64,000 nucleotides of DNA from Shigella phage SH7. Shown here one piece after another: positions 23,679-26,503 of this stretch. The first letter of the stretch is position 1; each line of letters begins with the position of its first letter. Below the pieces are notes generated by a model that was not told the DNA's origin, did no database searches, and saw nothing but the letters and a program-made list of their open reading frames with translations. The DNA is taken from sequence record KX828711; one strand, given 5' to 3'. The position numbers were made by a program, and so were the translations under genes.

Positions 23679-23867
23679 TTAGTCCTTAGTTAAATTTTCT
23701 AAATATGTTTCTAAATCATTTTCAACTTTATCGATAGATTTTACTAATTCGTAATATGTTTCGGCATCTCCATATTCAGAAGATATTTCAAAAGACAAAT
23801 CCTTTTCTAAACTAATAATTTCACCAACTAAAAATAATATTTCGTTCTTTTGTTCGCGAGTAATCAT
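23679..23867 (-). CDS. hypothetical small acidic protein
   Basis: 62-aa ORF. Confidence 0.5.
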   Translation of the reverse strand: MITREQKNEILFLVGEIISLEKDLSFEISSEYGDAETYYELVKSIDKVENDLETYLENLTKD

Positions 23868-24049
23868 AAGGAATTTATATAATTAATAAGTTCTTGTTCT
23901 TTATTATCGAATTCTTTAGAAAGTTCTTCGTACTCGTTTGCACTAAAAGGACCGCATTCATTACAAACTTTTTCCAATTCACTATTTTTATCCATAACTT
24001 CGTGGATAAGAGAAAAGAGTTTGTCTTTTTGTTCTTTGCTTAGGCTCAT
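23864..24049 (-). CDS. hypothetical small acidic protein
   Basis: 61-aa ORF, weakly similar to the preceding one. Confidence 0.5.
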   Translation of the reverse strand: MSLSKEQKDKLFSLIHEVMDKNSELEKVCNECGPFSANEYEELSKEFDNKEQELINYINSL

Positions 24050-24215
24050 ATATTAATTTCCAGAAGTTTTAAAATAATTCGCTTTTGCTTAAATATTTCC
24101 ACAGTTAAATGATCAGTATCTTTTTGACCAATTCCAATGGCAAAACCTTTATTAACAGCGAGTTCAATTAAATTATCAAGTTCACGTAACACTTCATATT
24201 GTAACTCAGAACTAT

Positions 24216-24428
24216 TCATTTCGGTTTACCTTCTTTAACGAAATCTGGATAAGGATAAAATCCCGAATAAAATCCTTCACCTTTATGATTGATGCATCCT
24301 TTATTAGAACAATAGCACCAATAATCGAAATCACAAACCATTTCATCGTTGCATAAAGCAAAAACAACCGGCCATTTACACTTTTCACAGTGGGCATTTT
24401 TAAGAATACTAGTTTGGCTCATAACCAT
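24216..24428 (-). CDS. Cys-rich small protein (probable zinc binding)
   Basis: 70 aa with 9 Cys including CEKC and CYCSNKGC. Confidence 0.5.
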   Translation of the reverse strand: MVMSQTSILKNAHCEKCKWPVVFALCNDEMVCDFDYWCYCSNKGCINHKGEGFYSGFYPYPDFVKEGKPK

Positions 24429-24646
24429 GTCACCTTTAAGCAGTATTCTTCTACATGCTGTTTACGACCTTTCTTATCAATAAAGGTATATTCAACGAAT
24501 GTTCCAATGTAGTCTTTATCTACATCATGTGGACTATTAATTGGACATTTAGTACGGCAAATGCGTTCCCATTGACGAATAATTACTGCCTTATTCTTTG
24601 GGTCATACGGATGTGGATAATGTATATTCATAATAACGGTTCCCAA
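24419..24646 (-). CDS. hypothetical small protein
   Basis: 75-aa ORF with Cys pair CRTKC. Confidence 0.5.
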   Translation of the reverse strand: MGTVIMNIHYPHPYDPKNKAVIIRQWERICRTKCPINSPHDVDKDYIGTFVEYTFIDKKGRKQHVEEYCLKVTWL

Positions 24647-25095
24647 TCAACAATCACAATTTCTAATTTAGAGGAATATGTATCTAAAATCCCCTCAATA
24701 ATATCCCAGTTCCCTTTACCTATGCCTGCTCCAATCCTAGGCATATAAATTGTAGGTTTAATCAGTTTATTTTCACCAAACTCATTTAATTCTAACATAC
24801 AATTCATTAAAGCGGAATACTCAAAATTTGGCCCTGGTTGAAATTGAGTATAAAGATTAAAGCAATACGCTTTATGAGTCCTAAAGTATTTTTCATAGAC
24901 TGAGTAAGAACCGAGTTTAGTTACATCACCCCATTCAGTCTGTAATTTATCAGCTTCCAAAATTTTAGGGAAAGCTTTGGTTAATTGACCTGCGACTCCA
25001 GCTTTCATCGCGTGAAAACAATTACATCCATGCGCAATATTTTTACCTTCAGCGAAAAGGGCGACAATATCGCCCTTGATATATTTTACAATCAT
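24628..25095 (-). CDS. macro-domain (ADP-ribose binding/processing) protein
   Basis: 155 aa; GDI..AHGCNCFHAMKAGVAG and IGAGIGKG blocks resemble macro-domain signatures. Confidence 0.55.
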   Translation of the reverse strand: MIVKYIKGDIVALFAEGKNIAHGCNCFHAMKAGVAGQLTKAFPKILEADKLQTEWGDVTKLGSYSVYEKYFRTHKAYCFNLYTQFQPGPNFEYSALMNCMLELNEFGENKLIKPTIYMPRIGAGIGKGNWDIIEGILDTYSSKLEIVIVDWEPLL

Positions 25096-25439
25096 CTAGT
25101 ACTCAATCCTCGATTATAAGAATCTACCAAACGGTCAACCATTGAATGACAAGCGGCTTTATCTTTCTCCTCCGCAACTGAACATTCTAAGGTATTCCAC
25201 TTTTTAGCATATCGTTTTAATAATGTATCGTTTTTGTATCTACTTGATTTATCTCTTTCTCCGTCTTTATATGCATATATTAATTTCTGTGCAAATTCAG
25301 CTTGACATGCTTTATTTTTCCCACAATAATCTGCCGCAGTGCGGTTTACATATTCTCTAATTTCAGTATATGATGTATCTGCTGATGCAGAAGCAGAAAA
25401 TGAAATTAATCCTATACATAAAACCAAAATTTTAGTCAT
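25092..25439 (-). CDS. secreted small protein (signal peptide)
   Basis: 115 aa; N-terminal signal peptide ending ASASA; 4 Cys. Confidence 0.6.
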   Translation of the reverse strand: MTKILVLCIGLISFSASASADTSYTEIREYVNRTAADYCGKNKACQAEFAQKLIYAYKDGERDKSSRYKNDTLLKRYAKKWNTLECSVAEEKDKAACHSMVDRLVDSYNRGLSTR

Positions 25440-25977
25440 TTACTATTTCCAAAAGTTTATTATTTTTAAGGTAATTAGCCTTTTCTAGGACTTCAGAAGC
25501 ATATTTAGAACCAGCTTTAACATTCCATCCCGAATTATAAGAGGATATTGCTTTTCTTATATCGCCCTTATGTATATTTAACCAATAAGAAAGTTCAATG
25601 TACGCCCAGGAAGCTGAATTGGATCGTTTATTCAACATTCTTTTTATTTCAGCATCGGTCATATTATAACCAAGTTCCTTAACTCTTGCTCGCATAGTAG
25701 GCAAATAATTTTGGAACATTCCGTAGGCGTGATGCTTTGGTTTAGATTTTAAATTAACTCCGCCAGAGCTTTCTTGCCATAAAATAGCAGCCATTATATG
25801 ACCTAATCCGCTCTTGTGGATATTTTTGTGTGTTTTATATTTTCCATCCTTAGAAAATTGTTCCCCGAATTGATACGCGTAACGCATGTTATCGAGTTGG
25901 ACATTACTGAAAGTATGCTCGGAGCTATGTGCCATCATTGAAATGGCCAATAGACCAGCGAGTAGTGCTTTTCTCAT
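25432..25977 (-). CDS. secreted lytic transglycosylase-like protein (SLT domain)
   Basis: 181 aa; signal peptide; family-1 motifs E-S (ILWQESSG), GMFQ, YNSG. Confidence 0.7.
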   Translation of the reverse strand: MRKALLAGLLAISMMAHSSEHTFSNVQLDNMRYAYQFGEQFSKDGKYKTHKNIHKSGLGHIMAAILWQESSGGVNLKSKPKHHAYGMFQNYLPTMRARVKELGYNMTDAEIKRMLNKRSNSASWAYIELSYWLNIHKGDIRKAISSYNSGWNVKAGSKYASEVLEKANYLKNNKLLEIVND

Positions 25978-25984
25978 GCTTACC

Positions 25985-26446
25985 TCATTGAGTTTTAATT
26001 ACTGCTTTAGAAGCCTTTCCTGGTAAACGACGACTGTTGATAATTGCCATCCTACATTGAAGTGACGGGTCTTTGAACTTCTCGTTAGGTTTACAAACTG
26101 TAAATCCAAGCCAAAGATTTCCATCTGTGATTTCTAAACGTCCAGGACGATATTCAACCCCATCAATAAAATCCTCGTCAATGTCAGGACGCGGAGGCAT
26201 TCTCAGGAATTCATTAACTTCTAAAACATGGTCTTTTATTTTATGGAATAATTCAAAAACGTATGTCTCATCAATCTCCCGTTGAATTGCACGATCAAGA
26301 AGATGTTGAGAATATTTTAGATGAAACGATGAGACCCCTGCTGCTTTTGATGCCTCACGAATCTCATTGTTAATTTGACGAAACTCCGACTCAAAGTGAC
26401 GACGAAGCTTATTTCGACGGATAAAAACTTCAGTGTTGATAGTCAT
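25985..26446 (-). CDS. regB: RegB site-specific endoribonuclease
   Basis: 153 aa; size and position match T4 RegB; sequence agrees with recollection. Confidence 0.8.
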   Translation of the reverse strand: MTINTEVFIRRNKLRRHFESEFRQINNEIREASKAAGVSSFHLKYSQHLLDRAIQREIDETYVFELFHKIKDHVLEVNEFLRMPPRPDIDEDFIDGVEYRPGRLEITDGNLWLGFTVCKPNEKFKDPSLQCRMAIINSRRLPGKASKAVIKTQ

Positions 26447-26473
26447 GTTATTCTCCTCTTAACTGATAGAAAA

Positions 26474-26503
26474 ATTATACCACAGTCAAGAGGAAAAGTA
26501 AAC
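26474..26503 (-). promoter_or_regulatory. early-type promoter (GTTTAC..TATAAT)
   Basis: Reverse complement GTTTACttttcctcttgactgtggTATAAT upstream of regB. Confidence 0.55.

What the first reader, a model, noticed from the sequence alone, without database searches (positions are those of the whole stretch)
24628..25095. Early-expressed macro-domain protein near tk
The 155-aa protein carries macro-domain-like blocks (GDI..AHGCNCFHAMKAGVAG and RIGAGIGKG). Macro domains bind or hydrolyse ADP-ribose adducts. T4-type phages ADP-ribosylate host proteins themselves (Alt, ModA/B) and bacteria use ADP-ribosylating toxins such as DarT in defence, so a phage macro domain could reverse host-inflicted ADP-ribosylation or tune the phage's own modifications.
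Basis: partly seen in the sequence, partly recalled or inferred. Interest (0 to 1): 0.55.

Follow-up and report, generated by a model that had tools for sequence, protein, structure and literature searches.

The report
T-even phage anti-DarT2 macrodomain (tk.4/adfM)

Summary
The 155-aa ORF at 24628..25095 (minus strand) is real and is a macrodomain: Pfam Macro above its gathering score, family profile against solved macrodomains E=1e-21, and an AlphaFold model (pLDDT 95.9) that matches TARG1, Poa1p, BT1257 and DarG. The window is a T6-like Tequatrovirus and the gene is tk.4, 98.1% identical to T4 Tk.4.

- Tk.4 is not a DarG-type (lysine) macrodomain. An invariant Gln84 sits where DarG K80 and TARG1 K84 lie, as in SCO6735, whose equivalent Gln is essential for removing ADP-ribose from thymidine in DNA.
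- PhiKZ "AdfM" is a true DarG-like lysine enzyme, so the two proteins that share this name belong to separate lineages.
- Bacterial relatives are stand-alone genes with no DarT neighbour.

The window allele differs from T4 only by a 22-nt mosaic patch that rewrites three residues of the substrate loop (T6-type versus T4-type). No Tk.4 biochemistry was found in the papers searched.

The parts
24628..25095 (-). tk.4 / adfM coding sequence: 155-aa single-domain macrodomain, T6-type allele
   Evidence: ORF. It is 152/155 identical to T4 Tk.4 and 100% identical to Shigella phage JK38 'macro domain-containing protein'. Pfam Macro match; AF2 model pLDDT 95.9.
25018..25032 (-). H22-G23-C24-N25-C26 motif. 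H22 and N25 are equivalent to SCO6735 H24 and N27; N25 is also equivalent to PhiKZ AdfM N23.
   Evidence: Profile alignment to SCO6735 and motif table. H22 is conserved in 70/73 and N25 in 72/73 phage-family members, and both in 74/74 bacterial relatives. SCO6735 N27S and PhiKZ N23A lose activity.
24991..25012 (-). 22-nt hyper-divergent mosaic patch (codons 28-35) in ADP-ribose/DNA-contacting loop 1. The window has FHAMKAGVA and T4 has FHTMGSGVA.
   Evidence: 11 of the 18 nucleotide differences from T4 fall in these 22 nt, and 0 of 200,000 permutations reach that clustering. Four of the changed codons are synonymous. The patch is shared with T6, JK38, AR1 and wV7 (about 36 records). About 160 records fall at 80-90% identity over the 61-nt query, the level expected for the T4-type patch; those records were not individually listed. 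Position 32 aligns with SCO6735 K34, whose K34E mutant nearly abolishes DNA activity.
24844..24858 (-). N80-L-Y-T-Q84 motif. Q84 (codon 24844..24846) occupies the position of the DarG K80 / TARG1 K84 catalytic lysine and of SCO6735 Q85.
   Evidence: HMM alignment to TARG1, MAFFT motif table with DarG, TARG1, SCO6735, BT1257 and PhiKZ gp104, and the equivalence stated in PMC9411070. Q84 is invariant in 73/73 and 74/74.
24706..24741 (-). Phosphate-binding loop P119-R-I-G-A-G-I-G-K-G-N-W130. G126 sits where TARG1 has catalytic D125.
   Evidence: P119 and G122 are invariant, and G124, G128 and W130 are at least 90% conserved.
25092..25095 (-). ATGA overlap of the vs stop codon and the tk.4 start codon (translational coupling)
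   Evidence: Read from the sequence, with ORF coordinates.
24628..24631 (-). ATGA overlap of the tk.4 stop codon and the tk.3 start codon
   Evidence: Read from the sequence. The tk.3 product is identical to T4 Tk.3.
26474..26503 (-). Early-type sigma-70 promoter (GTTTACT, 17 nt, TGgTATAAT) upstream of regB. It is the nearest candidate promoter for the regB-vs.1-vs-tk.4-tk.3 transcription unit.
   Evidence: No minus-strand terminator-like site lies between it and tk.4. Its function is inferred, not shown.
25092..26446 (-). Upstream co-oriented genes regB (25985..26446), vs.1 (25432..25977, SLT domain) and vs (25092..25439)
   Evidence: ORFs, T4 annotation, Pfam SLT.

Best explanation
The ORF is the T6-type allele of the T-even phage gene tk.4 (adfM). 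It is transcribed early as part of the regB-vs.1-vs-tk.4-tk.3 unit and is translationally coupled to vs. The product is a stand-alone macrodomain ADP-ribosylglycohydrolase. When the host DarT2 toxin ADP-ribosylates thymidines in single-stranded phage DNA, which blocks replication, Tk.4 binds the ADP-ribose in its macrodomain cleft and hydrolyses the thymine-ribose bond. This restores the DNA and lets the phage grow on DarTG2 hosts. Catalysis is probably of the lysine-independent SCO6735 type: Gln84, held in place by Asn25, positions the distal ribose and a water network does the chemistry. It is not the DarG/TARG1 lysine mechanism. What is shown: the macrodomain identity, the active-site residue pattern, orthology to T4 tk.4, and (in the literature, for T4) the DarTG2-specific requirement. 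What is inferred: that Tk.4 itself hydrolyses dT-ADP-ribose, that it uses the Gln mechanism, and that the T6-type loop allele works like the T4 allele.
For: Identity: 98.1% identical to T4 Tk.4 with the same synteny. T4 genetics: tk.4 was the sole hit in the DarTG2 screen and the deletion mutant was sensitised; T2 and T4 lacking adfN remain DarTG2-resistant. Fold and profile. Active site: Q84 aligns with DarG K80, TARG1 K84 and SCO6735 Q85, and N25 aligns with SCO6735 N27. These residues are invariant or nearly so in 73 phage-family and 74 bacterial members. Precedent: SCO6735, also Gln-type, cleaves thymidine-linked ADP-ribose on DNA; its Q85A and N27S mutants are inactive, and it rescues cells from DarT. 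That activity was reconfirmed with synthetic substrates. Timing: the T4 tk.4 transcript is early, and an early-type promoter with no intervening minus-strand terminator is present here.
Against: No enzymatic assay of any Tk.4-family protein was found in the papers searched; the preprint itself says only that hydrolysis 'seems likely'. The only phage AdfM with biochemistry, PhiKZ gp104, is a Lys-type DarG-like protein of a different lineage, so its data do not transfer directly. Tk.4 lacks SCO6735's longer mobile loop with Lys89, and has Gly23 where SCO6735 has Val25. The window allele differs from the tested T4 allele at exactly three substrate-loop residues. Whether T6-type phages resist DarTG2 could not be checked because the relevant paper is not held.
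Confidence: 0.78

Rival explanations
1. Tk.4 neutralises DarT2 mainly by binding and inhibiting the toxin, as an antitoxin mimic, rather than by hydrolysing the DNA adduct.
For: Catalytically dead SCO6735 Q85A inhibits DarT in vitro more strongly than dead DarG or TARG1 does (PMC9411070). Other anti-DarT factors, AdfA and AdfB, are described as acting on the toxin.
Against: H22, N25, Q84 and the glycine loops are almost perfectly conserved across 147 phage and bacterial members, most of which have no DarT partner. That pattern points to a conserved enzymatic function, not a toxin-specific interface. Tk.4 has no DarG-like C-terminal DarT-binding domain, being 155 aa with a single domain.
Confidence: 0.07
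2. Its main substrate is a small ADP-ribose derivative, such as ADP-ribose-1''-phosphate (Poa1p-type 'phosphatase'), O-acetyl-ADP-ribose, or an immune signal or toxin, and not DNA. The DarTG2 phenotype would then be secondary.
For: PHROG 335, T4 RefSeq and many other phage records call it 'phosphatase' or 'A1pp'. Poa1p shares the HxCNC motif and gives the highest query-normalised TM-scores, 0.81. A comparative-genomics survey argued that most phage macro domains target low-molecular-weight ADP-ribose derivatives (PMC9503650).
Against: In the single-sequence alignment Poa1p has Ser, not Gln, at the position-84 equivalent. The T4 screen gave a specific hit with DarTG2. Gln-type SCO6735 is a DNA dT-ADP-ribose hydrolase. 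A secondary small-molecule activity is not excluded.
Confidence: 0.08
3. It reverses or tunes ADP-ribosylation or RNAylation installed by the phage's own Alt, ModA and ModB enzymes.
For: T-even phages encode three ADP-ribosyltransferases (background knowledge; PMC9503650). SCO6735 and TARG1 also act on protein Glu/Asp-ADP-ribose.
Against: No tool result links tk.4 to alt or mod. From background knowledge, Alt/Mod enzymes modify arginine, a linkage that macrodomains are not known to cleave. Close relatives occur as stand-alone genes in many bacteria and in many non-T4 phages.
Confidence: 0.04
4. It removes ADP-ribose from RNA, countering RNA-targeting ADP-ribosyltransferase defences.
For: Some macrodomains reverse RNA ADP-ribosylation (PMC11833690).
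Against: CmdTAC, an mRNA ADP-ribosyltransferase, defends robustly against T-even phages even though they carry tk.4 (abstract of PMC11618068). SCO6735 was inactive on 2'-OH RNA ADP-ribosylation, and the paper's statements on 5'-phosphate-linked substrates conflict: inactive in its Results, active on RNA phosphate ends in its Discussion.
Confidence: 0.03

Closest known systems
T4 Tk.4 = AdfM (anti-DarT factor Macrodomain; bioRxiv 10.1101/2025.11.20.689424)
   Same: Orthologue: 152/155 identical, with the same position between vs and tk.3 and the same operon. All catalytic-site residues are identical.
   Different: Three residues of loop 1 differ (A29/K31/A32 here against T29/G31/S32 in T4), carried on a 22-nt mosaic patch. 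The window phage also has two extra small ORFs between tk.2 and tk.3.
Streptomyces coelicolor SCO6735 (PDB 5e3b) and Bacteroides BT1257 (2fg1/2afc)
   Same: All are stand-alone ALC1-like-class macrodomains with Gln at the catalytic position and the His/Asn pair. SCO6735 hydrolyses thymidine-linked ADP-ribose on DNA and protects against DarT. BT1257 is the best sequence hit.
   Different: Only about 19-26% identical. Tk.4 has HGCNC rather than HVCND, a mobile loop 5-6 residues shorter and lacking Lys89, and Gly23 in place of Val25.
DarG antitoxin macrodomain (T. aquaticus 5m31/5m3e, M. tuberculosis 5m3i)
   Same: Same fold class (Foldseek E about 1e-7, TM about 0.77), the same conserved Asn, and the same presumed substrate (DarT2-modified thymidine).
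   Different: DarG uses a catalytic lysine in an FPTK motif, has a C-terminal DarT-binding domain and is encoded next to darT. Tk.4 has Gln and a single domain, and no DarT neighbour was detected.
PhiKZ gp104, also named AdfM (Cell Rep 2026, PMC13309987)
   Same: A phage macrodomain that counters DarTG2. It removes DarT2 ADP-ribose from DNA in vitro.
   Different: It is a genuine DarG-like, Lys-type protein: NCBIfam DarG 137.8 bits against 24.9 for Tk.4, PADLOC DarG 132.9 against 29.5, and best PDB hit Mtb DarG at 9e-25. It groups with the DarGs in the NJ tree, not with Tk.4. It is imported into the phage nucleus.
Yeast Poa1p (ADP-ribose 1''-phosphate phosphatase; 6lfq-6lfu)
   Same: Shares the HxCNC motif and has high structural similarity (TM 0.81). 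It is the source of the 'phosphatase / Poa1p-like' annotations.
   Different: In the single-sequence alignment Poa1p has Ser, not Gln, at the position-84 equivalent. It acts on a small molecule, and no DNA role is known for it.

Membership tests
Macro domain superfamily (Pfam PF01661) | Profile match at or above the curated gathering score | tested here: met
   24.3 bits against a cutoff of 22, E=3.2e-5, covering profile positions 2-113 of 118. The family profile against PDB macrodomains reaches 1.5e-21.
Macro domain superfamily (Pfam PF01661) | Three-layer alpha/beta/alpha macro fold with glycine-rich ADP-ribose loops | tested here: met
   AF2 model with pLDDT 95.9. Foldseek probability is 1.00 to more than 50 macrodomain structures. 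G33, G122 and G124 are invariant or nearly so. Ligand binding itself was not testable.
T-even Tk.4 / AdfM orthologous group | High identity to T4 Tk.4 and conserved position between vs and tk.3 | tested here: met
   98.1% identity. Synteny regB-vs.1-vs-tk.4-tk.3 as in NC_000866.
T-even Tk.4 / AdfM orthologous group | Required for growth on DarTG2-expressing hosts | not testable with these tools
   Shown for T4 only, in a preprint. Not known for the T6-type allele.
DarG antitoxin (NCBIfam NF048014 equivalog; PADLOC DarG) | Strong match to the DarG model over its macrodomain | tested here: not met
   NCBIfam 24.9 bits (cutoff 250) and PADLOC 29.5 bits. The positive control PhiKZ gp104, which is also macro-only, scores 137.8 and 132.9 bits.
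DarG antitoxin (NCBIfam NF048014 equivalog; PADLOC DarG) | Catalytic lysine (K80) in the FPTK motif | tested here: not met
   Tk.4 has LYTQ, with Gln84 at that column. The equivalence is stated in PMC9411070.
DarG antitoxin (NCBIfam NF048014 equivalog; PADLOC DarG) | C-terminal DarT-binding domain and an adjacent darT gene | tested here: not met
   Tk.4 is a 155-aa single domain matching only positions 2-146 of the 338-position model. Its neighbours are vs and tk.3. None of 80 bacterial loci has a DarT2-like neighbour by tblastn, and none has a recurrent partner gene. The single-sequence probe has limited sensitivity.
Gln-type ALC1-like macrodomains (SCO6735 / BT1257) | Gln at the catalytic position, held by the conserved Asn, with His in the preceding strand | tested here: met
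   Q84, N25 and H22 align with SCO6735 Q85, N27 and H24, and are invariant or nearly so.
Gln-type ALC1-like macrodomains (SCO6735 / BT1257) | SCO6735-specific Val/Ile25 and the extended Lys-bearing mobile loop | tested here: not met
   Tk.4 has Gly23 at that position, and its loop is 5-6 residues shorter with no lysine. The proposed role of Val25 is through its backbone, so this does not exclude the mechanism.
Gln-type ALC1-like macrodomains (SCO6735 / BT1257) | Hydrolysis of thymidine-linked ADP-ribose on single-stranded DNA | not testable with these tools
   Needs an enzyme assay. Shown for SCO6735.
Poa1p-like ADP-ribose-1''-phosphate phosphatases | HxCNC motif and close structural similarity | tested here: met
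   HGCNC against HSCNC. TM-score 0.81.
Poa1p-like ADP-ribose-1''-phosphate phosphatases | Appr-1''-p phosphatase activity | not testable with these tools
In the single-sequence alignment the position-84 residue differs, Ser in Poa1p and Gln here.

The most novel reading that the evidence does not exclude
The T-even AdfM is not a captured DarG antitoxin. It is an independently recruited member of a widespread family of stand-alone Gln-type macrodomains (HGCNC ... NxYTQ ... IGxGxAGGxW) that uses lysine-independent, SCO6735-like chemistry, so phages have countered DarT2 at least twice with different macrodomain lineages. In addition, the loop-1 cassette that distinguishes T6-type (AMKAG) from T4-type (TMGSG) alleles, exchanged by short-patch recombination, would tune substrate or DarT2-variant specificity in an ongoing arms race.
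Probability: 0.2. Interest if true: 0.5.

Novelty: already known. Interest (0 to 1): 0.27.

Why it matters
The gene itself is not a discovery. It has long been annotated as an A1pp/macro-domain protein and was functionally assigned as the T4 anti-DarTG2 factor in 2025. It matters as one layer of the T-even phages' stacked anti-DarT arsenal, alongside AdfA and AdfN. What this analysis adds is that the name AdfM now covers two mechanistically different enzymes: the Lys-type, DarG-like PhiKZ gp104 and the Gln-type, SCO6735-like T-even Tk.4. The only published AdfM biochemistry belongs to the former. Anyone extrapolating mechanism, designing catalytic-dead controls or predicting DarTG2 resistance from a genome should use Q84 and N25, not a lysine, for the T-even protein. 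They should also be aware of the two co-circulating loop-1 alleles. Homologues occur in 2,814 of 50,697 phage records, so the family is relevant to predicting the host range of therapeutic phages.

Tried and rejected
1. I looked for MotA-box middle promoters (TGCTTYA, 11-13 nt, TANNNT). None lies on the minus strand between tk.4 and about 35 kb, so only the early-type promoter upstream of regB is proposed.
2. The GC-rich hairpin at 25057..25077, flagged as a plus-strand terminator-like site, forms a 9-bp stem in the mRNA sense. The region's folding energy is not unusual (z = -1.1), so I give it no role.
3. I looked for a DarT neighbour of bacterial relatives to test the 'orphan antitoxin' origin. 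None was found in 80 loci, and no recurrent partner gene appeared. The largest 'cluster' was an antisense shadow ORF inside the macro gene itself.
4. The named 'bacterial MAG' homologues P0053 and P0076 turned out to sit on T4-like phage contigs, so they are not evidence of a bacterial origin.
5. I tried to find out whether T6, which carries the window-type loop, resists DarTG2. LeRoux et al. 2022 (PMC9250638) is not held, and no bioRxiv version was found.
6. I wanted to check the Q84-N25 side-chain geometry in the AF2 model, but coordinates are not exposed to scripts.
7. I searched for Tk.4 biochemistry in recent ADP-ribosylation papers and found none.
8. I did not use the search of protein representatives, because its hits cannot be placed in genomic context.

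Full report
OBSERVATION. The ORF at 24628..25095 on the minus strand exists, starts with ATG and encodes 155 aa. The macro-domain assignment is robust. Pfam PF01661 scores 24.3 bits against a gathering score of 22, with E=3.2e-5. The single sequence finds only macrodomains in the PDB, led by BT1257 at 1.3e-8 and followed by Poa1p, SCO6735, TARG1 and DarG. A profile of 73 homologues gives BT1257 1.5e-21, SCO6735 5.8e-18, TARG1 2e-17, Poa1p 5.5e-15 and DarG 1.7e-14. An AlphaFold2 model built on that alignment has mean pLDDT 95.9 and pTM 0.91. Its top Foldseek matches are TARG1, Poa1p, BT1257, DarG, SCO6735 and ALC1, all at probability 1.00.

IDENTITY. The region is 98.5-99.1% identical to T6, T2 and Shigella phage JK38, so the window comes from a Tequatrovirus. 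The gene is tk.4. It lies between vs and tk.3, downstream of regB and vs.1, exactly as in T4 NC_000866, where it is annotated 'phosphatase; contains A1pp phosphatase motif'. The protein is 152/155 identical to T4 Tk.4 and 100% identical to the JK38 'macro domain-containing protein'. Homologues occur in 2,814 of 50,697 phage records. These include Tequatrovirus and other T4-like phages of Klebsiella, Acinetobacter, Aeromonas and Vibrio, Felixounavirus, and Pseudomonas phages.

WHAT IS ALREADY KNOWN. The HIDEN-SEQ preprint (bioRxiv 10.1101/2025.11.20.689424) challenged a T4 transposon library with DarTG2. It found tk.4 as the single significant hit, showed that a clean deletion sensitises T4 to DarTG2, and renamed the gene adfM. 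Hydrolysis of DNA-linked ADP-ribose was proposed there but not assayed. This fits earlier work showing that T2 and T4 lacking adfN stay DarTG2-resistant (PMC11825919). T4 omics class tk.4 as early at the RNA level and middle at the protein level (PMC9697503 supplement).

EXPRESSION CONTEXT IN THE WINDOW. The vs stop and tk.4 start overlap as ATGA at 25092..25095. The tk.4 stop and tk.3 start overlap as ATGA at 24628..24631. The nearest upstream sigma-70-type site on the minus strand is GTTTACT, 17 nt, TGgTATAAT at 26503..26474, just upstream of regB. From my own knowledge it resembles the T4 early-promoter pattern. No minus-strand terminator-like site lies between it and tk.4, and no MotA-box middle promoter was found nearby. 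Early transcription of this allele is therefore inferred, not shown.

MECHANISTIC REFINEMENT. The preprint describes Tk.4 as a DarG homologue. The alignments show it belongs to the same structural class but is not a DarG-type enzyme. Where TARG1 has catalytic K84 (ITKK) and DarG has K80 (FPTK), Tk.4 has Gln84 in an NLYTQ motif. Where TARG1 has D125, Tk.4 has G126. The same Gln is found in SCO6735 and BT1257. PMC9411070 states that SCO6735 Gln85 is equivalent to DarG K80 and TARG1 K84. It also reports that SCO6735 cleaves thymidine-linked ADP-ribose from DNA and rescues E. coli from DarT. Q85A is dead, and N27S (Asn27 positions Gln85) is almost dead. The authors propose a water-mediated, lysine-independent mechanism. 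The activity was reconfirmed with synthetic substrates (PMC12879935). Tk.4 H22, N25 and Q84 align with SCO6735 H24, N27 and Q85. Q84 is invariant in 73/73 phage-family sequences and N25 is present in 72/73. There are also differences from SCO6735. Tk.4 has Gly23 instead of Val25, although the proposed role of Val25 is through its backbone. Its mobile loop is 5-6 residues shorter and lacks Lys89.

TWO DIFFERENT 'AdfM' PROTEINS. A 2026 Cell Reports paper (PMC13309987) independently named PhiKZ gp104 AdfM. It showed that the protein removes DarT2-installed ADP-ribose from DNA in vitro, with an N23A mutant impaired. I translated the published sequence. It carries FPTK and scores 137.8 bits on NCBIfam DarG and 132.9 bits on PADLOC DarG, with Mtb DarG as its best PDB hit at 9e-25. 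Tk.4 scores 24.9 and 29.5 bits on the same models. In a motif table and a crude NJ tree without support values, gp104 groups with the DarGs and TARG1, while the Tk.4 family groups with BT1257 and SCO6735. The two proteins are homologous only at the superfamily level (hhalign probability 97%). The existing AdfM biochemistry therefore does not directly cover the T-even protein.

ORIGIN. A scan of species-representative bacterial genomes found more than 366 relatives at 31-42% identity, and 80 loci were kept. The 74 full-length ORFs are mostly stand-alone proteins of 150-160 aa. H22, G23, N25, C26, N80, Q84, G122, G124, G128 and W130 are invariant in all 74. tblastn with P. aeruginosa DarT2 found no neighbour, and clustering the flanking ORFs found no recurrent partner, only housekeeping genes and an antisense shadow ORF. 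Two 'bacterial MAG' homologues are in fact on T4-like phage contigs. Within the sensitivity of a single-sequence DarT probe, Tk.4 looks like a recruited stand-alone hydrolase rather than an orphaned antitoxin.

ALLELIC PATCH. The three amino-acid differences from T4 (A29T, K31G, A32S) are contiguous in loop 1. At the DNA level, 11 of the 18 differences fall in 22 nt (gene positions 84-105, window 24991..25012), and four of the changed codons are synonymous. Only 7 differences lie in the other 446 nt, and 0 of 200,000 permutations reach that clustering. This is the signature of short-patch recombination with a diverged allele, not of point mutation. The window-type patch is shared by T6, JK38, AR1, wV7 and others, about 36 records in all. 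About 160 records fall at 80-90% identity over the 61-nt query, the level expected for the T4-type patch, although those records were not individually listed. Position 32 aligns with SCO6735 K34, which contacts the distal ribose and phosphate and whose K34E mutant nearly abolishes DNA activity. Positions 29, 31 and 32 vary across the family, with K31 seen in 6 of 73 members, so the allele is probably functional. Whether the patch changes specificity is unknown.

RIVALS. Toxin binding rather than hydrolysis has a precedent in SCO6735 Q85A, but it does not explain the near-perfect conservation of the catalytic residues. Small-molecule processing (the Poa1p-type 'phosphatase' annotation; the argument in PMC9503650) remains possible as a side activity. 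In the single-sequence alignment, however, Poa1p has Ser at the Gln position, and the T4 phenotype is DarTG2-specific. Reversal of the phage's own Alt/Mod modifications and RNA de-ADP-ribosylation have no supporting evidence here.

VERDICT. The T-even AdfM is a Gln-type, SCO6735-like enzyme and not a DarG-type one. It belongs to a separate lineage from PhiKZ AdfM. Its bacterial relatives are stand-alone genes. T-even phages carry two loop-1 alleles exchanged as a short mosaic patch. None of the papers I could search or read holds an enzymatic assay of a Tk.4-family protein.

Noticed in passing
window 24046..24428 (minus strand): The window has two small ORFs between tk.2 (23864..24049) and tk.3 (24419..24631) that T4 lacks; in T4, tk.2 abuts tk.3. 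One is 24046..24219 (57 aa, PHROG 3452, unknown function). The other is 24216..24428 (70 aa, Cys-rich, Pfam PF23895 'Phage zinc binding domain', E=2e-29). Both overlap their neighbours by 4 nt. This is a variable mini-cassette right next to an anti-defence gene.
   Followed up: partly
window 25092..25439 (vs) and 25432..25977 (vs.1): Both proteins begin with signal-peptide-like hydrophobic N-termini (MTKILVLCIGLISFSASASA... and MRKALLAGLLAISMMAHS...). vs.1 has an SLT transglycosylase domain (Pfam E=1.4e-5). A secretion-type N-terminus is unexpected for Vs, which is annotated as a modifier of cytoplasmic valyl-tRNA synthetase. The HIDEN-SEQ preprint reports that vs becomes important in minimal medium.
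   Followed up: no
window 26453..26456 (minus strand): The regB ribosome-binding site (AAGAGGAGAATAAC-ATG) contains GGAG, the RegB cleavage motif, directly downstream of the early-type promoter at 26503..26474. This is consistent with RegB acting on its own mRNA (RegB specificity from the T4 annotation).
   Followed up: no
window 25057..25077: A perfect 8-9 bp GC-rich hairpin (AAGGGCGA-loop-TCGCCCTT) sits at codons 7-13 of tk.4 and was flagged as a plus-strand (antisense) terminator-like site. It also folds in the mRNA sense, and a second stem partly covers the tk.4 AUG. The region's folding energy is not unusual (z = -1.1).
   Followed up: yes
L002 (GCA_051648945.1, 'Bacilli bacterium' MAG) and L003/L005 (GCA_051660865.1, 'Culicoidibacterales' MAG): Contigs of 41-44 kb deposited in bacterial MAGs encode T4-type Rnl1, PNKP, a Dda-like helicase, dCMP deaminase, a T4 spanin and Phage_Y01A around the macro gene. 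They look like T4-like phage contigs binned into bacterial genomes. In L002 the macro gene sits two genes downstream of a DUF4326 gene and an Rnl1 gene.
   Followed up: partly
Literature (PMC13309987 and bioRxiv 10.1101/2025.11.20.689424): The name AdfM was given independently to two non-orthologous proteins: PhiKZ gp104 (Lys-type, DarG-like) and T4 Tk.4 (Gln-type). This nomenclature collision could mislead annotation transfer.
   Followed up: yes
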